Below are positions 2,455-58,659 of a stretch of 64,000 bases of DNA, one piece after another. The notes beneath the pieces were generated by a model that was not told where the DNA came from, did not search any database, and saw only the letters and a program-made list of their open reading frames with translations. The position numbers were made by a program, and so were the translations under genes. This DNA is from Chiloscyllium plagiosum (lineage: Eukaryota): the NCBI RefSeq assembly GCF_004010195.1, contig NC_057721.1, forward strand, positions 47,512,330 through 47,576,329, in the 5' to 3' direction. Positions within the stretch are counted from its first letter, which is position 1. Each line of letters begins with the position of its first letter.

Positions 2455-2690
2455 AGAGAAAATAGAAATTGCTGGAAAAGCTGAGCAGGTCTGGAAGCAT
2501 CTGTGGAGAGAAATCAGAGTTAACGTTTCGGGTCCAGTGACATTTCCTCAAAACCATTCTGAAGAAAGGTCATTGTACCTGAAACACTAACTCTGATTTC
2601 ATTCCACAGATACTGCCAGACTTGCTGAGCTTTGCCAGCAATTCTGTTTTTGTATTTGATTTCCAGCATCCACAGTACCTTCAATTTTTA
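2455..2690. mobile_element. Fold-back short element made of two opposed PLE-type 3' ends with degenerate hammerhead cores
   Basis: Left half (gaaattgctggaaaagctgagcaggtctgg...aacgtttcgggtccagtgac) is an imperfect reverse complement of the right half (ctgaagaaaggtcattgtacctgaaac...ccagcaattctg). Confidence 0.7.
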
Positions 2691-2937
2691 CTAAGGACAG
2701 GGAAAAATCTGGCTCCTGGCAGATAAGGAACAGTTAGAAACATTTTAACTAACCCACCACCATTGAAAAGTCCAGGAATAAACGATTGGAAATCTGTAAA
2801 AATCACTTATAAAGATTTCTAAAATTAATCAATGAAACCAATGAATTCTATCTAAACAAAAGTGTAATACTATGGATGCTGGCATTTGAAATAGAAACAG
2901 AAATGCTGGAAATACTCGGCAGCATCTGTGGAGAGAA

Positions 2938-3685
2938 GCAAAGAACAAAGAAAATTTACAGCCTAGGAACAGGCCTTCAGCCCTCCAAGCCTGAGCTGAT
3001 GCAAATCCACTGTCTAAACCTGTCGGCCAATTCCTAAGCATCTGTGTCCCTCTGCTCCCTGCCTACTCATGTATATGTCCAGACGTACCTTAAATGAATC
3101 TACCGTGTCTGCCTCTACTACGTCTGCTGGCAACGCGTTCCAGACACCTACCATCCTCTGTGTAAAGTACTTGCCACATGTATCCTCCTTAAACATTTCA
3201 CCTTACACCTTGAAAGTGTGACCTCTCGTCATTGAATCCTTCGCCCTGGGAAAAACCTTATCTCTATCCACCATGTCTATACCCTTAATGATTTTGTAGA
3301 CCTCAATCAGGTCCCCCCTCAATCTCCTTTTTTCCAATGAAAACAATTATAACCTACTCAACCTCTCTTCATAGCTAGCACCTTCCATACCAGGCAACAT
3401 CCTCGCAAACTTTCTCTGCACCCTCTCTAAAGCATCCACATCCTTTTGGTAATGTGGCGACCAGAAATACACAATATTCTAAATGCGGCTAAACCAATGT
3501 CTTGTACAATTTTAACATGACCTGCCAGCTCTTATACTCAATATCCCGTCCAATTAAGGTAAGCATACCATATGCCTTCTTGACCACTCTATTCACCTGT
3601 GCACCAACCTTCAGGGTACAATGGACCTGAACTCCCAGATCTCTCTGCTCATTAACTTTTCCCCAGGCTCTTCCATTTACTGTAG
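2938..3685 (-). mobile_element. CR1-like LINE 3' portion inserted into a fold-back element (halves about 2868-2940 and 3701-3810)
   Basis: ORF 3014..3196 YFTQRMVGVWNALP..VVEADT..SFK..LD; 3' tail at the left end; flanks rejoin into the 2455-type element. Confidence 0.8.
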
Positions 3686-3975
3686 ACTGTATAAAATTTA
3701 TAGCAGAGTTAACATTTCAGACCTGTTCTGAAGAAGGGTTTCAAACTCAAAATGTTAACTCTGTTTTCTCTACACAAATGCTGAGTTTCTCCAGTATTTC
3801 CAGTTTTTGATTAATATTTTAAGTCAATGGACTACCAGGTGATGCCTAATTTGCTGAGTATTTCCAATTCTTCTACCTACAACCCTGATATGTTTGCCCC
3901 ACATACATGTGCCACAATGTCACTGAGAATGGGTCTTGTTAAAGGCTAGGATATATTGCCAAGTAAAATCTTCAC

Positions 3976-4075
3976 CGATTGGTCCAAGATCAGGCAACTC
4001 AAAATGGCTTGCAAATATCTCCAAGATGTAACCTCGTGTCTCTTCAAAAACCTGCACACTGAAATGCATCCCTTG
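3976..4075 (-). CDS. HGD: HGD exon 9 ([34 protein letters not shown])
   Basis: tttctttcag|...|gtgaag; 100 nt; [10 protein letters not shown] motif. Confidence 0.97.
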
Positions 4076-5928: not shown

Positions 5929-6008
5929 CTGAATCACACAAATCTCATTAGGTTCAACCAGCATCTTTCCAAACTCTGTTGTAATCAGCAGGTTCCCTTT
6001 CTGGGGCA
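5929..6008 (-). CDS. HGD: HGD exon 8 ([27 protein letters not shown])
   Basis: ttgcag|...|gtaag; 80 nt. Confidence 0.97.
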
Positions 6009-6137
6009 CTGCAATCAAACAGGTATCTAATTAAAATCAACAGGCTTTAAAGAAAAAGCCTATGCTATATTTCCTATTGTCAGTTTTGGAGAACTATGAA
6101 CATATGAATTTAGGAGCAGACGTACATCAATCAGCGT

Positions 6138-6223
6138 TAAAAATCACACAACACCAGGTGACAGTCCAACAGGTTTATTTGGAAGCACTAGCTTTCGGAG
6201 CGCTGCTCCTTCATCAGGTGGTT
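6138..6223 (-). ncRNA. Short PLE-type repeat carrying an intact minimal hammerhead ribozyme motif (core 6186-6220)
   Basis: Minus strand CAC CUGAUGA A GGAGC AGC GCUCC GAAA GC UA GUG; related copies at about 19080-19155 (-) and 58390-58475 (+). Confidence 0.75.
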
Positions 6224-7504
6224 GTCACATCAATCAGTACCTCAATAAGTTCGTAGCTGGTCTATTTGTGTTCCAAATTCTATATTCACATTTACCTTTG
6301 ATAGCCCTCGAGTGCCCTGCTTGAACAGAATCTATCCACCTTTATCTTAAAAATATTTGATGACCCTGTCTCCACCATCCTCTGAAGGCACAGAGTTCTA
6401 AAGTTGTATAACCCTCAGGGTAAAGAATTCTCCTCATATCTGTCTTAAAGGGTGGTCCCTAATTTTAGAATCAGTATTATTTTACTCCTCAACTCTCCCA
6501 TTTTTCTTTTCCTGTGTATCATTCAGCAATCATCAAAAAATGAAAAATTGTTAAAAAAAAATCTGAAATCAGCAAGGTGGAATGGTAAGGCTTTCATATT
6601 TTCTTGTAATTGTCATTCTCTGTTATGCCATTCTGTCCAGTAAACACATAGATGATTAATATTCTGTGCCAGGGCGAAATGTGGGATTACACCTGGAAAA
6701 TGTTTACAAAAACTACTTTTGTTCTTTATTTTATTATGTAATGTAGGGAAAACTAGCAAGATCAGAATCTGCAGCCATCTTTATTTCCCCTTCAGTGGCT
6801 TATTCGACCATTTCTAGGAAGAGTCAACTACATTGCTGTGGATCTGCAGTGACATGTAGCCCAGACCAGATAAAGAAAGCAGATTTCTTCTAAAGATACT
6901 TAGTGAACCATATGGGTTTTTACAGTGGTAGCTGTCATGGTCATGAACACTAACTTTATATTCCCCAGAGGATTAGATTAGGCCTCTGGCTTATTAGTCT
7001 AGTGACATTACAACTTTGCTATAATTTCTCCCTTTTATCATTGTGTAGAGTCATCACAGACAAAAATAGACTGAACATTAGCTACATTCTTTGGGATGAA
7101 AAGGGATAAAGCTCATTGGGCTAAGTTAAACTAGCACAAGATTAACATGAGGGAAAGATGGGAAGAAAACATTAGGCTAGATGTGAAAATTATTTACATG
7201 CTGGGTTGATAAATTAGCAATTAAATATAAACTGACTTGGAATAAAAGAAAGTGTGAACACTGAGGTTCCATGGAATAACAGTCATGAGCTCAAAAAGGC
7301 ACTTAATAAAGATTGGAGATGATGAAATAAATTAATGAGAGGTGTAAAAGGTATTGTTCTTTGGTAGAACTTGTCATATAGGCAGTGCAGCAGAAGTTCA
7401 CCAGGCTGATACTGGTGGTAGCAGAACTATCTTATGATGATAAGTTGGTTTGACTTGGATCCATTTTTACTTGAGTTTGGAATGATAATCCTAAGATCTT
7501 AGGA

Positions 7505-7975: not shown

Positions 7976-8004
7976 ATTTTACCTAGTCATGCAATATTGG
8001 CAGT

Positions 8005-18770: not shown

Positions 18771-19231
18771 CTGGAAAAGAATAGACAGTGAGTAATTAAT
18801 GTGTTATTTCAGTACTTTTGTACACAACTGATGAAAATAGTTAACTTGCACCAAGTTGTATTTCTGATTAGAAAATATATTTATTTGTTGTTGGATATTT
18901 TTTGTGCAAACACCTGACTTAACAGTTACATTACTTAAAGTACATTTTAATATTTCATAATGTGCTTAATATTTATTTTTGGAAGGTGTGTATATTTATC
19001 TGGAAATACAGGCTTATGTCAATGGCAATTCAAAAGTATTTTTCCACAGATTCTGATTATTATCCTGCCTGAGTCAGAAGTCACACGTTACCAGGTTATA
19101 GTCCAACAGGTTTATTTGAAATCACAAGCTTTCAAAGCGCTGCTCCTTGTCATTCCTGAGTAAGGATAAGCTCAAAGTATGGACCTCCTCTCCTTTTCTA
19201 CCAAATAAAAGATGTACAATAATGATATCAG

Positions 19232-20604: not shown

Positions 20605-21903
20605 TTGCCATTGGGACTTTACAATGTTCAAACTGCTGGTGCCATACTTAAAGCTTAGCTGCTTGCTATTTTAGAGGTTGAAAGTTCAGACTGGCCCAGT
20701 CTGGTGCTCAATCATTACTACCAAATACATGGGTCAGGGCAAAGGAAACCTCACCCCTCTTCTTCACAAACAGGGATCAGGAGATGCTGGCGGACGGGAT
20801 GGTGGAAAAAAAGGAAGATGGTCTTTTTTGAGCCAGTGCTCCACAGGGGTAAATGCCACCATCTTCTTTCTGCTAGCTCATACCCATAGGACCTGCGCAC
20901 ACTCTTACCCTGCCACTATGCACATGTCTGACCAAGGCTCATGGACTACAAATCTCAGAATTGCATGCAGACTGTTTCTATTATCCACCTCATCCTCCCA
21001 AACTACAAACCCTTCCTGCCTTCTGCACTTCCTACTTGTTCATCAGGAACCTCTTGTCACCTGCCCTGCTCCCACATCTCCAATAATTGCTTTTTCATCC
21101 ACTTCCACCTTTTCATTCTCTCAGTTTTCCCCAAGGCAGGAAAAATTGACCCACAGCCAGACTGAGAGATCCAAGACTGACAGGGAATGCTGGACATCAG
21201 GAGGAGGAAATAATCCAGGCAGCGAAGAGCATGACTGCATATGTGGGAATAGAGAGACATCAATTGCCAACCCACCCTGTAAGTCTCATTGTACCCAACT
21301 GTGCTGCTCTCCAATTCCCGTCAGCATCAACTCATTCTTAATCTGCAGAAGCCTTTCTGCATCTTCAACAATTCCTTCCTCTTAGCCGACAGTTGTGACA
21401 CTCAACAAATATTGGCCAGTAAGAAACCCAGACTCTCAGGTTCACCTCCATCTCTGTGGAGAGGAACCCTGACAGGGTGCATCATCAAGGCTTTCTCCTG
21501 CACCCTCCAGTGCACAGAGGCTGGCACCTTAGTGGGTACTTTTTCTAGATTAGACTCACAAAGATAAATTTAGTTGATAGACTTTGTGGAAACATATCCA
21601 AAGCCTTTGGGAGATTAAGTTATTGGGCATAACAGTCCACAAGGACCTGTTAAAAAATGCTCAGGCATTACCTCACCCTTCAATTCACAATGGCTGTAAT
21701 TAAATAAGCTATCATTCACAGTTTCTTCCTGGTAATCAATTCCAGGAAGAGGGGTGAGGTTTCTTTTGCCCTGACCCATGTATTTGGTAGTAATGATTGA
21801 GCACCAGACTGGGCCAATCTGAACTTTCAACCTCTAAAATAGCAAGCAGCTAAGCTTTAAGTATGGCACCAGCAGTTTGAACATTGCAAAGTCCCAATAG
21901 CAA
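20605..21903. repeat. 158-bp inverted repeats (20605-20762 / 21746-21903) around a 983-bp spacer
   Basis: Direct comparison shows 4 mismatches in 158 bp; mirrored ORF starts MKVQTGPVW.. (+) and MKVQIGPVW.. (-). Confidence 0.92.
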
Positions 21904-24237
21904 AGAATTAAAGTAAGAACACTGGGTCTTTTTTGCCTATTCTTTTTTTTGATATAGATACCGTATTGGCCTGTTTCAAAAATACTGCTGCCTTTTCATG
22001 TCCATATGATTGTTATTATATTACAAGTCTCCTTCCTATTCTCTTTTTATACTGCATACTATCATACACCTTTGTGATCTATTTGTTTTGAGGCCATTCA
22101 ACCTGTTTCTATCTAATTTACAATAAAATCATTGATTGTGATTATTCCTGTGAGGTACAAGCTCATTTGCATCATGTACAGTTTTCACTTCTTCCCTGAC
22201 TGCTTGTCCATAATTATAGTCTGAAAGAATTTCTACTGTTATTCTTAGCCTCAGCTATGATTCCCATTCCCAGGTTTTCCTATCCTCGCTGATCATCCTT
22301 TTGAAGTGTCTCTGACTCTATTATTCATCATATTGAGTCCTTCCCTGTTTGTCACTGCCAGATTCAGAAAAACCATATTTTCTGTCTCACCTTTGCTAAT
22401 CTACTTAGGTCAATATTTTATTAAATTGAGACTGTTGATTTTAACTTTCATCCATGTCCTTGTACTCTTAACAGTGTTCCATTTATCTTCCATTGAAGTA
22501 TTGCTATGATGTGTTTCATTTACATTGATCGGGTTATTAAGAAATGCCAGATCCTGTAGCTTTTTCACTGTATTCAGTCATGAAGCACATGCAAGATGTC
22601 TATATCACTTGATTTTTCTCAGTGTATTTATTTTTGCAAACATAAGGTTTTATTTCCAGATGATAGTTTTAAACTCAAATCAAAATTTGGATCTGCTGTA
22701 GTGAGATTTGAATTAAGTTCTTTTTAACATTGCCCTTAACCTCAGGTTTGTTAGCCCATAACATAACCACTAAGCAAATGCACAAGATAGTCACCCAACA
22801 GTATGATTCATTCTGAAGAAGGGTCACTGGACTTGAAACACGAACATTGCTTTCTCTGGACAGATGCTGCCAGATCTGCTGAGTTTCTCCAGCAGTTTCT
22901 GTTTTTGTTTCAGTTCTTCAACATCTGCAGTTCTTGGTTTTATTCTGGTTTATTCTGTAAGTTTCTACCTCCCACAAGATCAGTTATATCTCCTAGCCAG
23001 GTATCCCTGACATATAGGACTACATACATTTAATCTACTTTCTTTTTCCTAAAAGTTCTTCCACTCATGAATGTTTCATCCTCTGAAATTAGCCATGTTT
23101 CACGAACTTATACAACAGCCCCCAGTTCCAGCATTTCTAATGTTTCTGGTATTTATGTAAATACCTCCTTACAAAACTCGCTCTTCCTATAATCTCCATA
23201 ATTTGATTATTCCATGTCTCCAGTTCATAAGAATCTCTCAGGTTTTGAGTAAATATCAGCTCAGTGGCTATCTTCTACAATCTGTTTAATCCTTTGACAG
23301 TGTTTAATCCTTGGAAGTTTGTTGTTAATTATATAATTTAGATACTACCCATCTTTTCTGGAAGGATCCCCGATTACACGTGGAAGTAGGAATATTGTAC
23401 ATACAGCATGCTGCCATTAGTTATTCGCCTCTTCAATTCTTTTGGTAAATTATACTCCTTTGCTAAATATTTATATGGAAATTAAGATTTGATTAAGACA
23501 GAAATATTTATATAATTGAAAATGGCGTGTTTAAAAGTATGAAGTTTTAAACAGGCAGCACTACTGCTTAAGTAGGCCTCAATATATCCCATAATAATAA
23601 GACGTAGGATAATAACCCCATTACATCTGTGACCTTCTGTCAGTAGGCAGCTACATTCAATCTTCCGCTTATTGGCTCTTGTTCCTGCAACACCTAAATT
23701 TCAAAATATGTTTGTGATCAAAGTCTGCAAGTTGTGCAGTCGACAGTCACAGTCTGCTGATCCTTAACCAAAAACACACTGCTATGTATTTCTTCCCAAA
23801 AATGAGCAACTTTTCGCTAATGGAAACAATGTATACTGTGACAGACAGATTAGAGAAAAGTATGTATTTAAAAGAGAACAATAAAAATGTAGTAGAATTT
23901 CAACAATAAGATAATAACAATTGATAATAGCTCACATAAGTAAATATTGACTAAATAGATCGATCGAATGCTGACAGTGTTTAGAAGGATAGTACTTTTA
24001 TAGTTAATCAAACTGGCCAAAGAAAGTTAGAAATACAATTAATTGGGAGAGAATAGAAAGCAGAATATATATCATGAATTTGGTTTTACCTTTTAGTAAA
24101 GTGGAACCAAAAAATATATCAATAATTATTTCAATATTGATGAACAAAAAACTGTAAAGGATAATGCTTATGAAATTTTATTTCTGTAATGAATAAAATA
24201 CATGTATGTCGAATATAGATTTATTTCTCATTCTTAC

Positions 24238-24591: not shown

Positions 24592-25397
24592 TTGTGTCCC
24601 TTCCATCTACCTTTCATAGTACATCATCCACCACAAACTCTGAACACTTAGCACTAATCTCATCACACTCCCTAACCACAATCTCTGACAAAATCACTGC
24701 CTCAGTATTCCATTTGATGCCAAACTGATCTTTAGGTGCATACATTGTCTTTACAGAAACTGTCTAAAACAAACCCTGTAAATTATTCTTCTATGAACCT
24801 ACCTTATACCATCTGCAGCTGAAATCTTTACCATGTCTTCTACATTCGCACATGGTCATTTCCTTGCTATATAGGATCTTATTTTTCACCCTCTGCAAAC
24901 TCATCCCTTGTACCCTTGTGTTCATAGACCTGCAATGGTTCAATTTTCCCAAGCTCCTCACATTTAAATTCTCAACCTTTTGTTTAAACCTTCTCCCTAC
25001 CCTCTATATCACCATTTCTATCCTCTGACTGGAGTTTTTTGTTTATTCCCTACCTTGCACACATTCAATTGGCATTATCCATCTAAGCTGTCTGTTCTGG
25101 TGTTATTGTTTCAATGGGACTGGAGAAGGTTATCTGAAATGAAACCTATGAAGCATCTTCAACCAGCAAATGGACAGACTGGAGGTAACCTCATCTGTTA
25201 GGGAACCACGCACACGTAGAAGTTGCAGATTGTGTCAAAACACTACAGATAAATGTCAAGGACATTGAGGATAGCAATAAGGACAAGTGGGGAGCTAGGG
25301 CCTGGATTGTCTATTTGTTGTAACCTGCACTTCCACTAATATCATTTATTGTAACCTGCACATCCACTAATATCATTTATTGTACATCAAAGTTTTA

Positions 25398-26070
25398 CCT
25401 GCACATCCACTAATATCATTTATTGTATCCGTTGCTCCCGATGCGGTCTCCTCTACATTGGGGAGACTGGGCGCCTCCTAGCAGAGTGCTTAAGGGAACA
25501 TCTCCGAGACACCCGCACCAATCAACCAAACCGCCCCGTGGCCCAACATTTCAACTCCCCCTCCCACTCTGCCAAGGATATGGAGATGCTGGGCCTCCTC
25601 CACCGCCGCTCCCTCACCACCAGACGCATGGAAGAAGAACGCCTCATCTTCCGCCTCGGAACACTTCAACCCCAGGGCATCAATGTGGATTTCAACAGTT
25701 TCCTCATTTCCCCTTCCCCCACCTCATCCTAGTTTCTAACCTCCAGCAACACGATCCCCTGACTTGTCCGGACTTGTCCGACCTGCCCAGCTCCTTTTCC
25801 ACCTATCCACTCCACCCTCTCCTCCCTGACCTATCACCTTCATCTCCTTCCCCACTGACCTATTGTACTCTATGCTACTCTATACCCACCCCCACCCTCC
25901 TCTAGCTTACCTCTCCACGCTTCAGGCTCTCTGCCTTTATTCCTGATGAAGGGCTTTTGCCCGAAACGTCGATTTTGCCTGTCCTCGGATGCTGCCTGAA
26001 TTGCTGTGCTCTTCCAGCACCACTGATCCAGAATCTGGTTTCCAGCATCTGCAGTCATTGTTTTTACCTT
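25398..26070 (+). mobile_element. Penelope-like element 3' fragment: GIY-YIG endonuclease plus 3' UTR with hammerhead motif
   Basis: IYCIRCSRCGLLYIGETGR...EH...PVAQHFNSPSHS...EERLIFRLGTLQPQGINVDFN; hammerhead core 25943-25970. Confidence 0.88.
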
Positions 26071-26479
26071 GTCTATTTGTGCACCTTATGAGAGTGATGA
26101 CTGAGTCTATCATGTGCTTATAGTATCCTAGAGGGAGATGTCTTTCCAAAGGTATTCAGACACAACCTGATTATTAAGGTGGACAGAGACCAACATGTTG
26201 TACTCATTCATATTAGGCAATGGACACCAACTGAGAAGTGGATGATCAATTATTTTTATCTACTTCCTTTACAAACAATAAATCCAGAATGAGTTCATGA
26301 AGACTATGTTTAGCAAGTGGCCAGTTTGTGAAGCAAGGTAATGAGACAGCAAGCTTATATGTTGTGTTATAAATCTGCTTTTCCAGAGCCAGAGGCAGAA
26401 AGAATGTGCAGGTGCCTGAGTGAGGAGAGGGCATATTCCTTGTTTCTCTCCAACAATTCTTTTACCTTGCCTGCACGAA

Positions 26480-26610
26480 CACTTGATGAAGGGCTCTTGG
26501 CCGAAACATCGTTTCTCCTGCTCCTCAGATGATGCCTGACGTGCTGTGCTTTTCCAGCACCACACTCTCGACTCTGATCTCCAGCATCTGCAATCCTCAC
26601 TTTTTCCTAG
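26480..26610 (+). mobile_element. Short PLE-derived 3' end (degenerate hammerhead)
   Basis: ttgatgaagggctcttggccgaaacatc...gatgcctgac..tgctgtgcttttccagcaccacac...catctgcaatcctcactt. Confidence 0.7.
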
Positions 26611-27169
26611 TTGATTCTAACCTTACTGCACAAACACCAGGCAGTGCCTTCAATATAAACCAAGCAGTTGCTGAAGCATAAAGTTACTGACATTTTAAAT
26701 TGTCTCAAGTCAGAATCTCGAAGAAACCAGCATGAAATTGTCCGAGTCATCAACTTTCAGGATCTGTTTATGATTCATGTTCTTTAGGGATGCTTAAATT
26801 ATTCTGTATTTGTGACTTTCTTCTGTGTTTTGGAACTGTTGAATACTGGTATGAGTTAGAGCAATTATTATATTTATTAATCAGGTGTTAACTACAATAA
26901 ATAATATTCCTTTTTATAAACATTAGAAGAAAACTTGTGTCATTTTCACAGCACTCAAGCATCCACTGAATTGATAATCAAATCCTTTAATTAGCAATCT
27001 CTTGTTTCAAAGAATGGGCAGAGAGAGGAACCATTGAGGAAAAACCAATGAGGTTCTGGGAACAACAGTGTCAGAGCAGGAAATAGCTCATTGTCGATAT
27101 TCTTATGCCAGAATTGAATAGCTAAGACTTGAACCATTCAGGGCAGTCTCAATCAGCTGGAGATCAATT

Positions 27170-32794: not shown

Positions 32795-33052
32795 AAGCAC
32801 AGCAGTTCAGGTAGCATCCGAGGAGCAGTAAAATCAACGCTTCAGGCAAAAGCCCTTAATCAGGAATACAGGCAGAGTGCCTGAAGAGTGGAGAGATAAA
32901 TGAGAGGAGGGTGGGGATGGGGAGAAAGTAGCATAGAGTACAATAGGTGAACGGGGGAGGGGATGAAGGTGATAGGTCGGGGGGAGGGTGGAGTGGACAG
33001 GTGGAAAAGAAGATAGGCAGGTAGGACAGGTCATGGGGACAGTGCTGAGCTG
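32795..33052 (-). mobile_element. PLE 3' UTR fragment, same family as 25750-26010
   Basis: Reverse complement aligns to 25770-26010 including a decayed hammerhead (ctgattaagggcttttgcctgaagcgtt). Confidence 0.75.
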
Positions 33053-33488
33053 GCGAGTCTATTTCAGGACATGGTTGAAGATGTTTATTTCAAGATCATT
33101 CTTAGATATTAAATTGCCTTCAGGTTTTTAAATAGCTTTTTTTTCTTTATTTCCTTCCCAGTAGTTGAAATAGCTCTCTTATTTAAATCAGGATTTTTAT
33201 TAAGAAATCGGAAGAGGAGGACTTCATTCAGCCCATTTAGTCTGGTTGACCATTCGATAAGATTATGGCTGATCTGACTGTGGCCTAATCCCACTTTCCT
33301 ATCCCTTTAGCTCTGGGCTTCCTTGCAGATCTACCCCAAATGATATCTAGCCACCTTCGTCTTTTAGGTGATTTTGAAGTTCTCTCATATATTATTGGCA
33401 TCTCTAAATTTAACTATGATCTGTTTGTACACTGCTTTGGGAATTACCTGCTTCTGTTGCATGCAAACCTTTTAAGATTGGAGGAATT

Positions 33489-33695
33489 AGGAGAAAGTGA
33501 GGACTGCAGATGCTGGAGATCAGAGAGTCGGGTGTGGTGCTGGAAAAGCACATCAGGTCAGGCAGCATCCAAGGAGGAGAATTGACGTTTCAGGCATAAG
33601 CTGTTCAGAAATGATTATGAGCTTATGCTCGATTCTCATGCTCCTCGGATGCTGCCTGACATGCTGTGCTTTTCCAGCACCATACTCTCAACTCA
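33489..33695. mobile_element. Fold-back element of two opposed PLE-type 3' ends
   Basis: gtgtggtgctggaaaagcacatcaggtcaggcagcatccaagga vs tcctcggatgctgcctgacatgctgtgcttttccagcaccatac. Confidence 0.8.
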
Positions 33696-37403: not shown

Positions 37404-37558
37404 GAAGCAGCTTTCAATTAAGTTCAATGAACCTTGCCAGTGGTTTCTATGCAGATTCCCTGAGCTCTGGCTTCCTTCACTGGGAAGGAAGCCAGAGCTC
37501 AGGGAATCTGCATAGAAACCACTGGCAAGGTTCATTGAACTTAATTGAAAGCTGCTTC
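37404..37558. repeat. Perfect palindrome, 75-bp arms, 5-nt loop
   Basis: 37404-37478 is the exact reverse complement of 37484-37558. Confidence 0.97.
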
Positions 37559-37621: not shown

Positions 37622-37967
37622 CTGTCCTTGGGTGTATATATATAAAACACATTATTTGCCTAACCAGATAGAAGCAAAATCATTTGTAATAAAGTAAGTA
37701 ACGTTTTGCTGAATTAAAAGGGCCAAGATGCAGAAAACGCCATAGAAATAGGACAAAAAAACCAAATCACCATTGTTGAAAGTTAATAATTGTTTTATTA
37801 TGATCAAATCAATCACATACATAAGTAATATATTGATTTAGTTGCTGAGAAGGTTGGAGGGCTAATTTACTTAGGAAATTGTAGCTTTCCTGAGCTGTTG
37901 ATTAAACATATGTGATTACCACTCTTATCAAGTTAATGATCAACAAAAGCATTGTTGAGCTGCTCAT

Positions 37968-38184
37968 AGAGGAAAGTGAGGACTGCAGATGCTGGAGAGT
38001 CAGAGTCGAAAAGTGTGGTGCAGGAAAGACACAGCAGGTCAGGCAGCATCCAAGGAGCAGGAGAATTGACATTTCAGGCATAAGCCCTTCATTCTTGATC
38101 AAGGGCTTGTGCCCGAAACGTTGATTCTCCTGCTCCTCGGATGCTGTCTGACCTGTTGTGCTTTTCCAGCGCCACACTTTTCGG
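37968..38184. mobile_element. Fold-back element with two back-to-back hammerhead-like cores
   Basis: Arms 38008-38090 and 38097-38183 are imperfect reverse complements; centre gacatttcaggcataagcccttcattc|ttgatcaagggcttgtgcccgaaacgtt. Confidence 0.82.
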
Positions 38185-44449: not shown

Positions 44450-44546
44450 GAGCTGAAAATGTGTTGCTGGAAAAGCGCAGCAGGTCAGGCAGCATCCAAG
44501 GAGCAGGAGAATCGATGTTTCGGGCATAAGCCCTTCTTCAGGAATG
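44450..44546 (-). mobile_element. Short PLE-derived 3' end with near-intact hammerhead (core 44514-44541)
   Basis: Minus strand CUGAAGA A GGGC UUAU GCCC GAAAC AUC. Confidence 0.75.
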
Positions 44547-49150: not shown

Positions 49151-49470
49151 AGGCAGCATGTGGCTCAGTGGTTAGCATTGCTGCTTCACAGTGCCAGGCA
49201 CCCCGGTTCGATTCAAGCCTCGGGAGACTATCTGTATGGAGTTTGCACATTCTCCCCGTGTCTGCGTGGGTTTCCTCTGGGTGCTCCAGTTTCCTCCCAC
49301 AATCCAAAGGTGAATCAGCTATGCTAAATTGCCCACTGTGTTAGGTGCATTAATCAGGGGCAAATATAGGATGGGGGAATTGGGTCTGGGTGGGTTACTC
49401 TTCGGAGGGTCGGTGTGGACCTGTTGAGCCGAAGAGCCTGTTTCCATACTGTAGGGGATCTAATCTAATC
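49151..49470 (+). mobile_element. tRNA-derived V-SINE (HE1-like)
   Basis: A box tggctcagtgg, B box ggttcgattc, V-domain ggagtttgcacattctccccgtgtctgcgtgggtttcct, CR1-derived tail ending (tctaa)n. Confidence 0.85.
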
Positions 49471-50907
49471 CTCTGAAGTCCATCTTCATGGGAAAGTGAA
49501 TCATATGGATCTTGTGTCGAAGTAGACATGCTAAGTAACTATCTTATGGACCTCAACTCTATTTGATCTTGGAATTAAATAGATAATTTAAAGTATAATC
49601 ACCTATGACACCTGACATTCGAAACAATACCCCTGTTTCCATGTATCTTAAAGACCAAAAATCTATCTGCCTTCAGCAAAACAGTTGAGGAGCTCAGGTC
49701 AGGTCATTGTATCTTCTTCCTAGTAAAACAACCTAGTCCCTCATTTAATCTTTAACAAATAAGCCACCAGGCTTCTCGTTAGCGGAGTTCAGAACAAGTT
49801 ACATGGCCTCTTTCATTCCTCCAATTTACCCTAAGTTAAAGACAGCCCCAAAACATTACAACAAAACATTAGAAAACTTTGAATTTGTAACAGCTCGCTT
49901 TGTTCTTTTAGTCCTTCTCTCCAAGTAATTCCTTGCTGAATGCTAGCTTTTGTATTGAGATGCTTCCAAGTTCAACAAACTGCTACTCAAACATTAACTA
50001 GTTTAAAAGGTATTTCTCTCTGTAGTATTCAGGTATGTATACATTCTGCATATGCCACATTTCATTGTTTCAATTATTTTTAGAAGAATGTGCTTCTTTA
50101 TCTTTCTAAACTAGTTTTGTATCTCAAGTCTAGCTTTTCTTCTATTGTTTTCTAGATAATTATATGTAAGCTGTTTTATGTGAGTAAGATTTGTTAGACC
50201 TTGACAGCAAACAAAATCCTTCACTTACATTTACTGCCCTCTAAACAATCTAATTTCTGAATGCAAACTGAGAATTAGTCATGTTAGGGAATATTTCCAA
50301 CATTTATCCACACTTTTACTCCAAGTCGGCAAATGAAACCTGAGCCAAGAACATTCCCACTATAAATGTTTTCTTTCTCTCTTTATTCACAGGATGAGAG
50401 GATCTCTGGTCAGGCCAGCATTTATTGCCCAGGGGTCTGGCTCCTGACAGAAAAGTCGATTTTTCTGCTCCTCGGATGCTGCTTGACCTTATTTTTCCTG
50501 CACCACTCTAATCTGCAGCATCTTTTGCTCAGTTGTGAGTCAACCTAAGGATGGCAGTTTCCTTCCTTAAAAGGACATTAGTGAACCAGATAGGTTTTTC
50601 CGATAATGGATTCATGGTCATCATTACACTTAATTCCAGATGTTTTAAAACAAACTCAAATTCAAATTCTACCAACTGGCATGGCAGGATTTAAACATTA
50701 TCTGAGTCTCTAGTTTAATAGTCCACTAGGCCACTGCCTCGTCTTATGCAATCAGTCAGTCAGTGAGAATGCACAGCTACATCCAGGACACGTGAATCAA
50801 GGCAGCTTTCTTTCTTAAAAAGAGTTAAGCCTGTGAACCAATAACTTACTTAAAAAAAAAATCAACTTTCAAATTTATGAGCAAACTCTGTCCTCTCTCA
50901 CACGTAC

Positions 50908-50999
50908 CCTCACATCAACTGAGCATCCAACTGTCCATGATGGATTTCCCAACACCTGGTTGTGGCACAATAAATGTACAAGAGATGACTTTCCAACTC
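50908..50999 (-). CDS. RABL3: RABL3 exon 2 ([30 protein letters not shown])
   Basis: ttttcag|...|gtacgt; 92 nt. Confidence 0.97.
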
Positions 51000-52072
51000 C
51001 TGAAAAATTAACAGAGTTAAAACTGAAATCAGAAGTCAAATAGTTCAGTCTATGGCAGTCAGAGTTGTATTTAACAATAGTGCTAGGTAATACTCTACCC
51101 ACACTTCAATCAATTGAAAACTTTTACTGACAAATGCAGTTAAAGGTGTAGAATAGACACTATCTCCAAATAAAACAATTACGAATACAGTTTTATTTCT
51201 TTAAAATAGGGGTAATTAACCAAGGATTCTTAGACAGCACATTCCAGGTTTATGACCACAACCATCTAGAAAGACTAGAACAGCAGATAGACAGGGAAAG
51301 ATAAAGTCAACATTGTCCTAATGGATCATAGGGTGCTCTCTTCTTTACAGATGGATGACTCGTGGTGAGTTTAACCTGGTGACACCATGCTTCAGGGGAG
51401 GTTGAGAAGATGAGATTTTCATGGTGACCTCAGCCAGTATGGGAATTAAACCTGTGCTGTTGGTGTCGCAAACCAGATGTCGAGCCAACTAAACCAATGG
51501 GAACACCATCACCATCTCTATGCCACTCACCATCCTGACGTGGAAATATATCGCTGATCCTGGAATTTACTCCCCAGTGGCATTATGGAGGTACCTATAC
51601 ACAAGGACTGCAGTAGTTCAGAAGGCAATTCACTACCACTTTCTCAAGGGCAACAAGACACGGGCAATAATTGCTGGCCCAGCCAGTGACATCAAATTCC
51701 TTGAATAAGGAAAAAATATCCTTTATCGTCTTTTAGAAAAAGCAATCAACGCTCCTTATTGTTTGCTTCACCTGCATGTTTACTTTCAATGTCTTGAGAA
51801 TAAGAACACCCTGGTCCCTTCAGATATCAGCACTCTCCAATCTCTTGCCATTTAAAAATATTCTGCATTTCTACTTTTCCCACAAAAATGAATAACTTCA
51901 CATTTTCCTGCACTATATTCAATTGGACATAGCTTGCCCACTCATTTAATGTTGAAATTAATTTTGCACCTCTTTGTATCCTGTCACATTCCATCTAGCT
52001 GTCTCATCACATTTGGAAATATTACATTCAAAATTATTGTATTGGATGGTGCACAGATCAGATCCAAGTGTT

Positions 52073-52393
52073 GATTAGATTAGATTAGATTACTTACAGT
52101 GTGGAAACAGGCCCTTCGGCCCAACAAGTCCACACCGACCCGCCGAAGCGCAACCCACCCATACCCCTACATTTACCCCTTTAACCTAACACTATGGGCA
52201 ATTTAGCATGGCCAATTCACCTGACCCGCACATCTTTTGGACTGTGGGAGGAAACCGGAGCACCCGGAGGAAACCCACGCAGACACGGGGAGAATGTGCA
52301 AACTCCACACAGTCAGTCGCCTGAGTCGGGAATTGAACCCGGGTCTCTGGCGCTGTGAGGCAGCAGTGCTAACCACTGTGCCACCGTGCCGCC
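52073..52393 (-). mobile_element. Young tRNA-derived V-SINE (HE1-like)
   Basis: Minus strand ggcggcacggtggcacagtggttagc...ggttcaattccc, V-domain, (ctaat)n tail, CpGs intact. Confidence 0.88.
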
Positions 52394-52789
52394 CACTGAT
52401 CTTGCTACCCCACCAGTCATAGAACGGGTATGTTTCTGGAGTTCCCCCACCCAAAACCCCATCTCGTTAGGTGCTTAATTGTTTACTAACATTTAAGGCT
52501 TGATGTGGGAGGGCTGCAGAGCTTAGATCAGATCTATTGATTGTGAGTTTGCAAAGCTCTGTTATTGCACGTTGCTTATGCTGTTTGGCACATAAGTAGT
52601 TCTATAACTTCACCAGGGTTGAAGTCTCACTTTTAGGTATACTTGAAGCTGTTCCTTGCACGTTATCTTCCATTATTTATTGAAGCAGGATTGACCCCTC
52701 TTAGCTTGACAATAATGGTAGAGGGGGGGGATATTCTAGGCCACTTCGCCACAGATTGTGGAGTTGCATACAGCCCTAATGCTGATAAC

Positions 52790-53777
52790 TCACATTCAAC
52801 AACCAGATATACGAACAAATCAACGGAACACCCATGGGCTCACTGGTCTCGGGACTCATAGCAGAAGCAGTAATGCAAAGGTTAGAACAAACAGTCCTAC
52901 CACAAATTCAACCCAAACTCTGGGTCAGATACGTTGATGACACCTTTGTAATCATTAAAAACACGGAAATAGAGAAAACACACCGGATCATCAACCCCAC
53001 ACTCACAGGAATCCGATTCACGAGAGANNNNNNNNNNNNNNNNNNNNNNNNNNNNNNNNNNNNNNNNNNNNNNNNNNNNNNNNNNNNNNNNNNNNNNNNN
53101 NNNNNNNNNNNNNNNNNNNNNNNNNNNNNNNNNNNNNNNNNNNNNNNNNNNNNNNNNNNNNNNNNNNNNNNNNNNNNNNNNNNNNNNNNNNNNNNNNNNN
53201 NNNNNNNNNNNNNNNNNNNNNNNNNNNNNNNNNNNNNNNNNNNNNNNNNNNNNNNNNNNNNNNNNNNNNNNNNNNNNNNNNNNNNNNNNNNNNNNNNNNN
53301 NNNNNNNNNNNNNNNNNNNNNNNNNNNNNNNNNNNNNNNNNNNNNNNNNNNNNNNNNNNNNNNNNNNNNNNNNNNNNNCTGTGGTGGCCGGTATATTGGG
53401 TCCAGGTCTATGTGTTTGTTGATGGAGTTTGTGGATGAGTGCCATGCTTCTAGGAATTCCCTGGCTGTTCTTTGTTTCGCTTGCCCTGTAATGGTAGTGT
53501 TGTCCCAGTCAAATTCATGTTGTTTGTCGTCTGCGTGTGTGGCTACTAGGATATACCGGCCACTACAGCGGACAGCTGAAACTGACAACCGGAAGCGGCA
53601 GGGACAGGCCACTATAAATGCCGGAGGAAACACCACAGAAGCGCTTCACAGGAGGCTCCCAAGCACTGAGGATGTCACCTAGACAGGGGACGAAACGTTT
53701 GCAACAAAAACTTCCAGCTCGGCGAACAGAACCACAGCAACGAGCACCCGAGCTACATATCTTCTCACAAACTTTGA
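52790..53777 (+). mobile_element. Penelope-like element: RT fragment (+), gap, inverted endonuclease segment (53379-53550, -), 3' end with hammerhead (+)
   Basis: TFNNQIYEQINGTPMGS..SGLIAEAVM...WVRYVDDTFVI; minus-strand H....HEFDWDNTTI.....R.FLEAWHS..NSINKH. Confidence 0.88.
53028..53378. other. Assembly gap (351 N)
   Basis: Run of n. Confidence 1.
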
Positions 53778-55545
53778 GCTGATAACTCAATTGGTTGCCC
53801 TGTTTTGTGTTGCGAGATCTGTTCAAAATCCATCCCACTTAACGTGCCAGTATTAAACAAAAGGTATTGTCAACGTAAAAGACTTCTGTCTTCTTTAGGA
53901 CTGTGTATTAGTTGCTCGTACCAAGACTGCCATGGAAAATACATCTGTGACAGGTAATTTAGTGCAGATGAGGTCAAGTAAGCTTTTCCCTCACCACCAG
54001 CTGCAGACCTAGTTTTGCAGTTATATCCTCTAGGATTTAACCAGATCACTTTGTAATGGTGCTGCTGAATCACTCTTGTTGACAGGCACGCGAAGTGCAA
54101 ATATTAAAACAAAAAAATGTAGATGATGGAAATCTGAAGCAAAAACAGAAATTGCTTGAGAAACTCAACACCATCAGGTAGCATCTGTGGAGAGAACGCA
54201 GTGTCAATGTTTCAAGTCCAGCAATCCTCCTTCAGAAGTCTATGCTTATGCCTACCACATGAAAGACTTAGATTGGCGGGGAAAGGTTTAATTGGCAGGA
54301 GGTTTCTTTCCCATGTTTGACCTGATGCCATAAGACTTCATAGGGGTCTGGTCTTGCTTTTGAGGATTCCCACAGCATCTCCCACCCATCACTGTGTTGC
54401 CACATGTAGGCCAGATCAGGGAAGGATGTCAGATTACATTAGCTCCAAAATCTCACTGTTCTAAAACTGGAATGTAGTTATTGTGCTCATGTTTCTCCTC
54501 AATTACATCAAAGCAAGGGCTCTCAAACATTATAATGGCCAAATAACATTTTTGGTGGTGTTTAAGAGGACTGGTTATCTCAGTGGACCAGGTATAGCAT
54601 GTTGTTCTGGACAGTGTCAACAGCACAATTTGATTTTCTTTTTGGCTGAAGTAGAGGTGGGAACTGTCTCAGGAGGCAGAGACAATCACTTACAAAAACT
54701 ACCAAGAAATCAGCTCAAAATGAACCAATAGGAGACACTGAACCATACACCTGCCTACTGGCTGAGCACACATGAATGAATGATATTGATTGAGCAATAA
54801 TTTTTGGCCACAGCACAAGGAGAAGCTCCTAATTCTTTTTTCAACAGTGGATTTTCCTATATTGATGTACAGCAGTAGAGAAGCGTGAAGGTTTCAATTG
54901 AAAGTCTAAAGTTCTATCAATACCACAATCTCGTCTAAGGTTTTCTACTCAAGTTTTTGAAGTTGGACTTGAATCTTTGATTTTCTATTCACGATGCGTG
55001 TGCCAGGATTTGGCCAAGACGGATATCAGGGTTTAGTTATTTTAGTTTGTTGAAAAGGTACTGAATTTGAATACCATAGAACACTACATTGGTGAGAGAT
55101 ACTGGATTTTACTGTTGTTTCAGAATACCTCAAGATTTATCAACTTCCATGGTGTTCAAGAATTCATAAATCCTTACTATTAGATTATCCAGTTGTAAAC
55201 AAATTAAACTCAGCTTCTCTTACATTATAGCACTGATCACAGTTCAGAATGCCACATGTTGTAAATGTTTTGGGATGTCAGGAGGTACATAAATGCAATT
55301 ATTTTCTCTTTGGTTCCAGATTAAGTTAATCAAATAAAAATCCGCTTCCATTGCATAACCCATTTAAGCAATTTGAAACATTGTACAACAATTCTTAACT
55401 GACTGTGCAGTACAAGTATGTAATTTAAGCAAATTAGAGAATGCTCGAAAGATGAACATTCCTGATGAAGGGCTTTTGCCCAAAGTGTTGATTTTCCTGC
55501 TCCTCGGATGCTACCCGACCTGCTGTGCCTTCTTGACTTGACTCA

Positions 55546-55734
55546 ATATACCGGCCACTACAGCGGACAGCTGAAACTGACAACCGGAAGCGGCAGGGAC
55601 AGGCCACTATAAATGCCGGAGGAAACACCACAGAAGCGCTTCACAGGAGGGTCCCAAGCACTGAGGATGTCACCTAGACAGGGGACGAAACGTTTGCAAC
55701 AAAAACTTCCAGCTCGGCGAACAGAACCACAGCA
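55546..55734 (+). repeat. Second copy of the PLE 3' end at 53551-53739
   Basis: 189 bp, one mismatch (ggaggctccc vs ggagggtccc). Confidence 0.93.
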
Positions 55735-56139: not shown

Positions 56140-57150
56140 GAGTGCTTTTGACATTAGAGATTAGATAATAAAACAGAAAATATTGGAGAATCTTAGCTGG
56201 TCTGCCAGCATGTGTGAATAGAGGAAGAGTTAACATTTTGAGTCCAATGTATTGCTTCAGAATTGAAGGAAACTGGAAAAGAGTCAGGTGGTATGCTGCA
56301 GAAAAAAGGAGCAAGGAAGAGCCAGTGGAATAAATAGTAAAGGTGCCCCAGGGTAAAAGACAAAGGGACTGCTAATAGTAGAGAAAATTTATAGATGAAC
56401 AGTACGTATTGATGGTGGAAGGTTAATAGCAGAAAACAGGTCAGATCTACTTAGAGTAAATCCATGCCAGAGCAGACTTGGGAGTGGTAAATCAAAACGG
56501 AAGGTAAGGTTCATGGTCTGAAACTGTTGAATTCAATGTTGAGTCCTGAAGGCTCCAAAGTGCTCAAGTGGAAAATATAGTGCTATTCCTTCAACTTGTG
56601 TTAAGTCTTACCGGAACACTGCAGCAAATCTAGGACAGAAATTTTAGTTTGAGGGGGCAGTACTGCATTGAAAAACAAGCAACCAGAATGGTAGGACCAT
56701 TCTTGTTGAAAAGATGGAGGCGTTTTAAAAAGTTACCTGGTCCACTCTTGGTCTTACAATTGTAAAGGAGACAGCAATGTGAAAAGTCATTACAGTAAAC
56801 AGGTTCAAAGCAAGTACAAATAAATCACTGTTCCAGTGGGAAAGTGTGTTTCAGGACTTCGATAGTGAGGAAGGAAGAGGTAAAGGAATTAATGTTACAT
56901 CTGCAATTACATGCAAAAGGGGCCATTAAGAGTGTTCAGAGTGAATGCTGCAGAATGCTGACAAAAGAGGGGAAACAAAGATGTTTTTGGTAGAAGCATC
57001 TCATCAGAGGTGACGGATATAGCAGAGGATAATGCTTTTCATGCAGAAGTGATGGGTGGTAGGAAGTGGAAAGTTAGGACTAGGGAAATCTGTTTGTTTT
57101 GGGAGTGAGGGGGAGGGGTGGAAGCAAAACTGCGGGAGACAGATTGGACA
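56140..57150 (-). mobile_element. Old PLE remnant (endonuclease C-terminus and 3' UTR)
   Basis: Minus strand near 56585-56533 reads HYIFHLSTLEPSGLNIE, similar to LIFRLGTLQPQGINVD of the 25.4-kb PLE. Confidence 0.6.
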
Positions 57151-57475
57151 TGTATTCCTGATGAAGAGCTTTTGCCCGAAATGTCGATTTTACTGCTCCT
57201 CGGATGCTGCCTGAACTGCTGTGCTCTTCCAGCACCTCTAATCCAGAAACAGCTCAGGGCCTGTCACCCAGGAGCGAGGAATCTTTGATTAAGGAATAAG
57301 GAAAGCATTTTGAGTCACACTGGAGACATTTCTCTCTCCACAGTTGCTGCCAGATCGGAGTTTCTCCAGCACTTTTTGTTTTCATTAAACATGTTTATTG
57401 CTTTGTTTGAGAATGTGCCACGTTGAGTCCAGATCCAGGCCACTGTTAGAGAGTTAATGGAGTGTAAACCTTTAC

Positions 57476-57521
57476 CTGAATCCCCCAACACCAACACCTT
57501 CACCCGCTCCAAGGACGCCAT
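57476..57521 (-). CDS. RABL3: RABL3 coding exon 1 (MASLERVKVLVLGDS/G)
   Basis: ATG at 57521, donor gtaaag; 46 nt; start of the P-loop GDSGVGKS. Confidence 0.96.
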
Positions 57522-57860
57522 CGCACAAACACGTTCAACCTAGACCAACCCTCAGGTTACCGTTAAAAACTTTAACTAAATACTCGCTTGGGTATCTCTG
57601 GAGCAGAAGGTAATCGGTCAGCTTTCGCCAGCCGCCACCTGAACCTGACGACGGAGCTCCACCCGGAGCCAATCACCGACTGACCTCGGCCCACAACGAG
57701 CCCTGCGTACCGACGTCACCACGCACAGTGCCCTACGCGGTGACGTAACATCCGGGGCCGCGGTACGTGTTGACGCAGGCCCTTCCTGCAGCGCAGCGTG
57801 AGCCGGTTAGCGTGGTAATGTTAGTGCTCGAGAGTGTCTATTTGTAACCGGCAGTGAGTA
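57522..57860. promoter_or_regulatory. CpG-rich, probably bidirectional promoter (RABL3 on minus, presumably GTF2E1 on plus)
   Basis: CpG-dense patch immediately upstream of the RABL3 ATG; AGCCAATCA NF-Y box (CCAAT 57669-57673); CRE/ATF-like TGACG cores near 57646, 57711-57719, 57741 and 57771; ETS-like ACATCCGG 57748-57755. Confidence 0.8.
57780..57853 (+). other. GTF2E1: Putative non-coding first exon of GTF2E1 (start approximate)
   Basis: Plus-strand donor GCA|GTGAGT at 57854 at the edge of the CpG patch; identity inferred only from vertebrate HGD-RABL3-GTF2E1 synteny; no coding sequence seen. Confidence 0.5.
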
Positions 57861-58659
57861 TTTATTTAAATATTAAAATTATTTTAATAGTTACTGTCAT
57901 TAATATATTGTAATGTGATCGTCAGAATTGCTCGGCTTCGTTCACACCGCTATGAACGGTCAACGGTTCTTTAGTTGACCTGCATTATTGGTCATTAAGG
58001 TTTGTTGAAAGATACTGGTTTTATTTATTTCATAAATTTATTTTTTTTACGTGAGGGCACCGTACTAGAGACGATTCTGTAATGTGAGATACTGTTAAGG
58101 CATTGATATTTATACAAGTTTCAATTTGGACTTGGATGAGATGGCTGTGGTATACAGTAATTACTGGGGAGTAAACTATTTTTAAAGATTGGAACACTCG
58201 GGGGGGCTGGAAGATCTCCTAAACAACCACAGCAAATACCCAGTGGATTATACAGCTTTTGAATGAACCTTGAGTGCAACTCACCTGGAACTTAAAGTAA
58301 ATTTGAATGTCCCTATTTACTTTACTTTAAAGTAGACAAACACGGTAGGAATCACTTTGTAATCTTGTGTTTTACGATCTTATACTCCACAATCACCTGA
58401 TGAAGGAGCAGCACTCCAAAAGCGAATGCTTCCAAATAAACCTGTTGGGTTATAACCTGGTGTTGTGTGATTTTTAAGTCCCATACTGGCGCCTCCAAAT
58501 CATTTATAATCTTCATATACGTGCAGAGATCTGTTCTGATTGTGCCTGATTTAAATCGTCGGAAGGGAGTAAATTCTACCTTTATATTAACAAAGTTTTC
58601 AAAGTGTAGTTCTATGTTGTTCTGGAGTAGTATTAATTCTGATGTGAGGTGATCTAGGC

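What the first reader, a model, noticed from the sequence alone, without database searches (positions are those of the whole stretch)
2455..58475. Dispersed population of minimal hammerhead-ribozyme motifs in at least four Penelope-related short-repeat families
Seen: the pattern CTGA(T/A/G)GA + one extra base + short stem II + GAAA + a 4-6 nt palindrome ending in NUH recurs throughout. Family A (stem II GGGC-TTWT-GCCC): 25943 intact, 26483, 32840(-), 33590(-), 38075(-)/38095, 44514(-), 55462, 57158. Family B (GGAGC-AGC-GCTCC): 6186(-) intact, 19125(-), 58397. Family C (GGGTC-ACTG-GACCC-like): 2525(-)/2559, 3728, 22813, 54205(-). Family D (GTC..GAC long stem): 53666, 55661. The core is shared while stem II differs between families and still pairs, which is covariation-like support. 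Established: Penelope-like elements carry minimal type I hammerheads with palindromic stem III that are thought to cleave as dimers. Inference: most copies here have no ORF, so they may be non-autonomous ribozyme-bearing retroelements (retrozyme-like) mobilised by PLE proteins. I cannot tell whether these shark families are already described.
Basis: partly seen in the sequence, partly recalled or inferred. Interest (0 to 1): 0.8.

Follow-up and report, generated by a model that had tools for sequence, protein, structure and literature searches.

The report
Penelope retrotransposon end-pieces carrying minimal hammerheads
The repeated self-cutting-RNA motif is real but of a known kind: it sits in the end repeats of Penelope-like jumping genes, and the short copies look like by-products copied from the capped front end of those genes' own RNA rather than a separate family of elements.

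Summary
The motif is real: 4 of 22 window copies are intact (shuffles 0.005); a generic pattern hits 166,503 times genome-wide (control 324). It has every listed feature of the minimal hammerhead described in Penelope-like element (PLE) pseudo-LTRs in 2014, and this scan reported it before in this and other genomes. The retrozyme reading is not supported: no tandem arrays, and all four families have long members ending a GIY-YIG endonuclease ORF. What I add is the anatomy of the short copies. Their 5' ends pile up 4 nt (A) or 8 nt (B) before the core, at an initiator-like A, often after an extra G (79 of 100 against 59 of 100 one base away). 5'-complete elements start there too. 3' ends fall at two sites about 35 nt apart; 52 of 56 head-to-head pairs use one of each; target-site duplications flank many insertions. 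Best reading: internally primed cDNAs that ran off the capped, uncleaved 5' end of PLE RNA. Cleavage, transcription start and expression were not shown. New member of a known kind; the mechanistic reading is moderately interesting.

The parts
25319..26070 (+). Family A long copy: 5'-truncated PLE with GIY-YIG end (25355-25732), C/T-rich 3' region, pLTR and tail; 12-bp TSD at 25307-25318 and 26069-26080
   Evidence: (Pfam GIY-YIG E=0.0027, below curated cut-off)
25943..25970 (+). Intact family A minimal hammerhead; predicted cut after 25970; initiator-like A at 25939
   Evidence: loose ends and depth step at 25939 in public runs
26483..26635 (+). Family A copy, decayed core; runs about 25 nt past the tail into the element body
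32795..33055 (-). Family A copy with about 190 nt of upstream 3' region, decayed core at 32863
33481..33695 (.). Family A head-to-head pair (cores 33608-, 33603+), one arm with tail, decayed
37967..38183 (.). Family A head-to-head pair centred at 38095, one arm with tail, decayed; 8-bp TSD
44450..44545 (-). Family A short solo copy, no tail, palindrome broken; 6-bp TSD overlapping the 5' end
50438..50525 (+).
55458..55535 (+). Family A short copy, GAAA box broken, directly followed by a family D copy
57153..57249 (+). Family A short solo copy starting 5 nt before the core, no tail, decayed
6135..6226 (-). Family B short solo copy: intact hammerhead 6217-6189, 5' end at the A at 6225, one extra G at 6226, 11-bp TSD at 6124-6134 and 6227-6237
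19075..19154 (-). Family B decayed short copy; 7-bp TSD candidate
58365..58480 (+). Family B copy with about 30 nt of upstream sequence, GAAA box broken
2455..2680 (.). Family C head-to-head pair (cores 2551-, 2559+), decayed
3723..3812 (+). Family C decayed copy
22809..22945 (+). Family C short copy with tail, palindrome broken
54100..54238 (-). Family C short copy with tail, decayed
56170..56824 (-).
   Evidence: tblastn E=8e-7
52793..53777 (+). Family D PLE insertion: RT piece (52789-53028), assembly gap, inverted endonuclease piece, pLTR with tail; 12-bp TSD at 52781-52792 and 53778-53789
   Evidence: Pfam RVT_1 E=3.2e-7
53666..53699 (+). Intact family D minimal hammerhead with long, interrupted stem II; predicted cut after 53699
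55540..55734 (+). Family D copy without tail; intact hammerhead 55661-55694; 188 of 189 bases identical to the copy at 53551-53739

Best explanation
The motifs are minimal type I hammerheads in the pseudo-LTRs (pLTRs) of several endonuclease-bearing PLE families (shown). For A, B and probably C the PLE RNA starts, capped, at an initiator-like A only 4-8 nt before the core (inferred). The PLE protein nicks the target and primes reverse transcription inside the RNA at two sites about 35-40 nt apart, the 'tail' (two 3' ends shown here; internal priming shown in vitro for Anolis Poseidon). Priming in the 3' pLTR gives long 5'-truncated copies with endonuclease sequence; priming in the 5' pLTR gives a 90-135-nt cDNA that runs off the cap and inserts as a solo pLTR, often with a cap-derived G (inferred). 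Priming on both target strands, one site each, followed by microhomology joining gives head-to-head pairs (inferred). Templates were mostly uncleaved. The ribozyme most likely works as a dimer or with protein help, and would clip off the capped first 32 nt (A) or 37 nt (B) (inferred, untested). Most genomic copies are inert.
For: Long members with GIY-YIG in all four families; GIY-YIG first-look candidates 139,585 (A) and 11,130 (B). Downstream-anchored sample: of 108 solo A arms, 37 extend 43+ nt upstream, 0 end at -42..-22, 31 end at -7..0, 7 at +26..31; of 48 solo B arms, 20 long, 12 at -12..-8. Genome counts of purine-preceded starts: 5,675 at -4 against 1,403 at -5 and 1,233 at 0 (patterns differ slightly at the 3' side). 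Base before the start, by eye in 100 listed matches: G 79 (A, -4), 88 (B, -8), 59 (A, -5 control); after setting aside bases an inverted arm could have templated 51 G:9 A against 24 G:38 A, p=1e-7, control equal to the 40.5% background. Script count in held loci: 14 G of 18 at -4, 6 of 14 at -5. Extra G is the cap mark at full-length L1 5' junctions (PMC11702581). The 3 copies that have a core and continue past the tail into the element body start at -3, 0, +1; in two the ORF follows, ATG about 164 nt after the core start. Same two 3' ends in long, solo and paired copies. 52 of 56 pairs have exactly one tail, p=6e-12. TSD of 7+ nt: 29 of 65 solos (control 4.2), 35 of 56 pairs (control 2.6). 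Penelope has an internal promoter in its pLTR (PMC2377424). Anolis PLE primes at two internal sites, extends both strands, uses uncleaved RNA and needs RNA downstream of the priming sites (PMC11167929).
Against: No transcription start was measured: 1,801 RNA reads laid, no place where many molecules begin, both strands, 91% run on into unlike sequence; the second RNA run gave 0 reads. The control at position 0 is also G-rich unfiltered (71 of 100; 79 vs 71 p=0.25) and family C is weak (63 of 100), so end-tailing by RT may contribute. Filtering was by eye. Family D shows no pile-up at the core (5' ends -89, -115, -124, -290 in 4 core-bearing copies). No complete ORF with RT was seen for A, B or C (assembly gaps). 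Minimum-energy folds of monomers and dimers of A and B did not give the active fold. The sample favours young copies and one end of contig C1.
Confidence: 0.62

Rival explanations
1. Short copies are, at least in part, self-propagating non-autonomous elements: a solo pLTR is transcribed from its own internal promoter and re-mobilised by PLE protein (SINE-like).
For: A solo copy holds the initiator-like start and both 3' ends; Penelope's promoter is internal; short copies outnumber long ones; non-autonomous PLE partners exist in Chlamydomonas; one deleted pLTR-ORF-fragment-pLTR unit of 406 nt was seen (L198).
Against: 6 of 6 clusters (104 of 144 arms clustered) have long members, 1 of 7 to 5 of 9; Anolis protein needs RNA downstream of the priming sites, which solo copies lack; no flank carried along by several copies except the element body.
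Confidence: 0.17
2. The 5' boundary is not a transcription start but an arrest or processing point (protein-bound ribozyme region, or endonuclease trimming at ATT), with non-templated C tailing giving the G.
For: Anolis endonuclease prefers ATT and family A starts at ATT; G or GGG also precede junctions at position 0.
Against: B and C boundaries are not ATT; the G excess is absent one base upstream; RT meets stem I's 5' strand last, after the fold is already melted (inference); 5'-complete elements share the boundary.
Confidence: 0.13
3. Non-LTR retrozymes: ribozyme-cut, circularised monomers copied by rolling circle and dispersed.
For: Retrozymes derive from pLTRs and were found in one chondrichthyan (10.64898/2026.07.22.740005); a minority of 5' ends lie near the cut site (7 of 108 solo and 6 of 95 paired A arms at +26..31).
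Against: No tandem arrays in the window; copies keep the sequence 5' of the cut and are not circular permutations; several of the near-cut ends are internal deletions; canonical retrozyme hammerheads differ from the minimal type.
Confidence: 0.05
4. Head-to-head pairs come from one cDNA that folds back or from self-priming on an antisense template (proposed in PMC3846280), not from priming on both target strands. This concerns only the pairs.
For: Junction centres are often palindromic or microhomologous; the model is in print.
Against: An extra G before an initiator-like start points to a capped sense template; Anolis protein extends both strands in vitro. One-tail asymmetry alone does not separate the models.
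Confidence: 0.25

Closest known systems
[quoted passage not shown]
   Same: Core boxes, extra base between 9 and 10.1, G10.1-C11.1, palindromic 15.2-16.2 without loop 3, short helix I, several families per genome, mostly single dispersed motifs 'probably related to truncated PLEs', some opposite-strand pairs.
   Different: Stem II is 4-5 bp in A and B rather than 7-8 bp; number far higher (166,503 pattern matches; about 4,000 in coelacanth and 9,000 in Xenopus with another descriptor, so not directly comparable); sharp 5' boundary with extra G not described in the parts read.
Poseidon PLE of Anolis (PAc; Frangieh et al. 2024, PMC11167929)
   Same: Two internal priming sites giving the tail, hammerhead shortly upstream, uncleaved RNA used for insertion, both strands extended.
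   Different: In PAc the ORF starts inside the ribozyme; in family A the ATG is about 164 nt after the core start, beyond the tail. A and B have a zinc-finger-like linker (Neptune/Nematis type per PMC8557442).
Animal non-LTR retrozymes (PMC7229834; bioRxiv 10.64898/2026.07.22.740005)
   Same: Type I hammerhead, pLTR origin, dispersed monomers exist.
   Different: Defined as tandem repeats of 150-450-bp units expressed as circles; here no arrays, head-to-head rather than head-to-tail, minimal cores, long ORF-bearing members.
pLTR, inverted pLTR and tail structures of PLE insertions (PMC3846280, PMC8557442, PMC2377424)
   Same: Inverted 5' copy, 30-40-bp tail on one end only, TSDs, promoter inside the pLTR.
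   Different: Here the body is usually absent: the insertion is only one pLTR or two inverted pLTRs; no intron was seen between start and ribozyme.

Membership tests
PLE min-HHR | CUGANGA and GAAA boxes with paired stem II and NUH | tested here: met
   4 of 22 window copies; 169 distinct hits in held loci
PLE min-HHR | One base between positions 9 and 10.1, and G10.1-C11.1 | tested here: met
   Built into the descriptor, so not independent; base is A in 160 and T in 9 of 169; a looser scan allowing 0-2 bases chose 1 in 7 of 7
PLE min-HHR | Palindromic 15.2-16.2, no loop 3 | tested here: met
   ACGT 116, AGCT 37 of 169; among the 100 listed matches of a pattern allowing any SS, 98 are CG or GC (by eye)
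PLE min-HHR | Short helix I | tested here: met
   Not in descriptor: first two pairs form in 88% and 89% of 169; slid +1 5% and 14%, slid -1 second pair 67%; pairs differ between families; copies are not independent
PLE min-HHR | Located in the pLTR of a PLE | tested here: met
PLE min-HHR | Self-cleavage as dimer or with protein | not testable with these tools
   No assay; no RNA end peak in one RNA run
EN+ PLE | C-terminal GIY-YIG endonuclease | tested here: met
   A: Pfam E=0.0027, under cut-off; B: 34% to A, E=3e-15, no GIY-YIG Pfam hit; C: remnant E=8e-7; D: C-terminal piece recognised by eye, no Pfam GIY-YIG hit
EN+ PLE | PLE-type RT in the same ORF | tested here: inconclusive
   RT piece only for D; A, B, C RTs fall in assembly gaps or were not fetched
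EN+ PLE | 30-40-bp tail on one end, inverted 5' copy, TSD | tested here: met
Neptune/Nematis versus Penelope/Poseidon clade | RT phylogeny; zinc-finger-like linker | tested here: inconclusive
   Cys-rich linker seen in A and B; no tree built; Poseidon label for D is recalled
Non-LTR retrozyme | Tandem repeat with a hammerhead in consecutive units | tested here: not met
   No such array in the window; one 406-nt two-unit deleted element in held loci; whole genome not scanned
Non-LTR retrozyme | Abundant linear and circular monomer RNA | not testable with these tools
   Only a polyA single-cell run was informative at all
Separate non-autonomous PLE family | Subfamilies with private changes and no ORF-bearing members | tested here: not met
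   6 of 6 A clusters have long members; small sample, B-D not clustered

The most novel reading that the evidence does not exclude
Hundreds of thousands of these insertions are cap run-off cDNAs. They record that vertebrate PLE mRNA starts a few bases before its hammerhead, that a capped, uncleaved sense RNA is the template, and that one protein dimer primes both target strands at two different internal sites. The ribozyme would then be a decapping switch at the mRNA's front end rather than a circle-maker, and this genome would be among the densest in ribozyme motifs reported.
Probability: 0.5. Interest if true: 0.62.

Novelty: new member of a known kind. Interest (0 to 1): 0.38.

Why it matters
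The ribozyme class and its host elements are known, so the catch itself is ordinary. The junction anatomy bears on open points of the PLE cycle: sense or antisense template (left open in PMC3846280), whether cleavage precedes insertion, and how inverted pLTRs and tails form. It names exact nucleotides to test (start A, extra G, two priming sites, cut site). At roughly 77 intact motifs per Mb (29 in 377 kb) the repeats also matter for annotation: they should be classed as PLE ends, not as SINEs or host regulatory ribozymes.

Tried and rejected
Rfam scan: no hammerhead family matched; the miRNA-like hits at 2504-2606 and 33548-33670 are the head-to-head pairs. A peak of 5' ends at the cut site, suspected, did not hold in the anchored sample. 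Unconstrained folding did not give the active hammerhead for A or B and is uninformative for such short helices. PDB search with the A endonuclease: nothing significant. Pfam missed the B endonuclease and the A thumb-linker piece. Search for RNA runs: no RNA holder listed. Run X20 laid 0 reads, no test. Attempt to see full-length A elements: 13 loci chosen for long open frames were mostly assembly gaps; of 16 loci holding the ORF's N-terminal part only one kept the core. One search had duplicate and misaligned rows; I use it only for coordinates and family D, and took counts. There I dropped locus L170 (a 49-nt minisatellite holding the anchor) and 12 A arms next to gaps. Position-0 control for the extra G was confounded by duplications of the element's own GAAGGG, hence the -5 control. 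Lunse et al. 2016 is not held.
Full report
Observation. A strict descriptor finds 4 intact motifs among the 22 (25943+, 6217-, 53666+, 55661+), against a mean of 0.005 in 200 shuffles. The window is G000:C12:47512330-47576329 in a 3.56-Gb assembly. A generic exact pattern matches 166,503 times there, the reversed control 324 times. In 40 evenly placed 10-kb stretches (377 kb without gaps) the strict descriptor finds 29. Downstream anchors match 209,141 times for A and 43,142 for B.

What the motif is. Across 169 distinct strict hits in held loci the families read core, one extra base, G-C closed stem II, GAA, palindromic ACGU or AGCU, H. Stem I was not in the descriptor, yet its first two pairs form in 88% and 89% of hits, with different letters in each family (A: C-G, U-A; B: C-G, A-U; D: A-U, C-G); a +1 slide gives 5% and 14%, a -1 slide is less clean (67% for the second pair). 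These are the features listed for PLE min-HHRs in PMC4209133 (parts 1-2 of 4 read, supplements not seen), which also reports mostly single dispersed motifs and low activity even as dimers. Rfam does not detect them.

Where it comes from. The A copy at 25943 lies 210 nt after the stop of a GIY-YIG frame. All-against-all comparison of upstream flanks shows long shared extensions in every family. They translate to endonuclease C-termini for A, C and D; a C-type remnant lies in the window itself. For B, locus L228 has a 278-aa frame with a Cys-rich linker and GIY-YIG (34% to A, E=3e-15) ending 489 nt before a B hammerhead. The D copy at 53666 closes a TSD-flanked insertion that holds an RT piece. 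A and C align over their whole length. The linker suggests Neptune/Nematis for A and B (PMC8557442, passages); Poseidon for D is recalled; no tree was built. In family A, 6 of 6 clusters of five or more arms (104 of 144 arms) include long members. No tandem array of any family occurs in the window. The retrozyme definition (PMC7229834, passages; bioRxiv 10.64898/2026.07.22.740005, parts 1-3 of 5, supplements closed) is therefore not met.

Anatomy of the short copies. I sampled by an anchor 43-44 nt downstream of the core start, so that 5' ends are unbiased, dropping one minisatellite locus and 12 arms beside gaps. Of 108 solo A arms, 37 are long, none ends between -42 and -22, 31 end at -7..0 and 7 at +26..31, around the cut site at +28; of 48 solo B arms 20 are long and 12 end at -12..-8. 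Public contigs show the same step and heterogeneous loose ends at window 25939. The boundary base is an A in TCA-TTCC or TTA-TTCC (A), TCA-GTTC (C) and CCA-CAAT (B), which fits initiator consensuses (recalled: YYANWYY for A and C, BBCABW for B). 3' ends fall near +85-95 or +120-130 in long, solo and paired copies alike. 52 of 56 head-to-head pairs have exactly one tailed arm. TSDs of 7+ nt flank 29 of 65 short solos and 35 of 56 pairs, controls 4.2 and 2.6, so these are insertions, not recombination leftovers.

The extra G. Purine-preceded starts number 5,675 at -4, 1,403 at -5 and 1,233 at 0. By eye, in the first 100 listed each, G precedes 79 (A, -4), 88 (B, -8), 63 (C, -4), 59 (control -5) and 71 (control 0). 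After setting aside bases that an inverted arm could have templated, the counts are 51 G:9 A at -4, about 48:8 for B, and 24:38 for the -5 control, which equals background; raw 79 vs 59 p=0.003, filtered p=1e-7. The position-0 control is 24:24, or 49:24 if duplications of the element's own GAAGGG are kept, and unfiltered it does not differ from the test (p=0.25). A scripted count in held loci gives 14 of 18 at -4 and 6 of 14 at -5. In four TSD-defined junctions the gap is exactly one G, one being the window's B copy at 6226. An extra G marks reverse transcription of the cap at full-length L1 junctions (PMC11702581, one passage). The three copies that keep a core and continue into the element body start at -3, 0 and +1, and in two the ORF follows.

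Mechanism. Shown: PLE origin, two 3' ends, sharp 5' boundary, TSDs, one-tail pairs. From papers: internal promoter in the Penelope pLTR (PMC2377424, passages); two internal priming sites, extension of both strands, uncleaved RNA as substrate, protein-assisted cleavage in Anolis (PMC11167929, parts 1-2 of 4). Inferred: RNA starts capped at the boundary A; priming in the 5' pLTR runs off the cap; priming on both target strands gives the pairs; the ribozyme would remove the capped front 32-37 nt. The alternative of antisense self-priming for inverted ends is in PMC3846280 (passages and Discussion). Very short PLE insertions (median 128 bp) are known from Chlamydomonas and ascribed to 5' truncation (PMC9977147, passages).

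Against and unknown. One polyA single-cell run laid 1,801 reads on both strands, 91% running on into other sequence, with no start or end peak; the other laid none. This fits copies embedded in host transcripts and shows neither a start nor a cut. Family D shows no pile-up at the core. No complete RT-EN frame was seen for A-C. Unconstrained folds did not give the active structure for A or B.

Novelty. The class is in print, PLE expansion in whale shark introns is noted (10.1101/443036, passages), dimer cleavage is reviewed in PMC6765202 (passages; the primary paper is not held), and five earlier scan reports holding all my search words, four from this genome, reached the same filing. Searches (listings and abstracts) showed no description of these families or of the initiator and extra-G boundary, and a scan look-up for it was empty; subscription journals, Repbase, Dfam and the preprint's supplements were not available. 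Verdict: new member of a known kind, interest 0.38.

Noticed in passing
window 37404-37558: Perfect 75-bp inverted repeat with a 5-nt loop; Rfam mir-609-like at 64 bits, under the gathering score of 98. Probably a young MITE or palindromic insertion.
   Followed up: no
window 20605-21903: 158-bp inverted repeats, 97% complementary, around 983 bp with a 236-aa frame without Pfam match; may be a non-autonomous DNA transposon or an inversion.
   Followed up: partly
window 53551-53739 and 55546-55734: The two D copies are 188 of 189 identical, against 90-93% to other D copies, one with and one without tail, 2 kb apart; same event, local re-insertion or assembly effect.
   Followed up: partly
window 57500-57900: CpG-island-like stretch (GC up to 0.66, CpG observed/expected above 1), possibly a host promoter, about 350 nt from an A copy.
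   Followed up: no
window 25313-25430: The 5' junction of the long A copy repeats its first 31-34 nt three times, suggesting repeated template switches at the end of synthesis.
   Followed up: no
L198 minus strand, 373-880 from its 5' end (G000:C1:3863500-3869200): Deleted element: pLTR, tail, first 76 codons, then a second pLTR joined at the initiator-like start; 406-nt spacing. A possible seed for a retrozyme-like unit.
   Followed up: partly
L009:9547-9735 and L039:7225: A fifth family, D-related, with its own stem II and stem I pairs.
   Followed up: partly
L170:1875-2700: 49-nt minisatellite built from the pLTR segment downstream of the ribozyme, without the core.
   Followed up: no
window 49160-52384 and 28657-29073: Inverted pair of SINE-like repeats and a LINE RT fragment (Pfam RVT_1 E=0.0015).
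   Followed up: no
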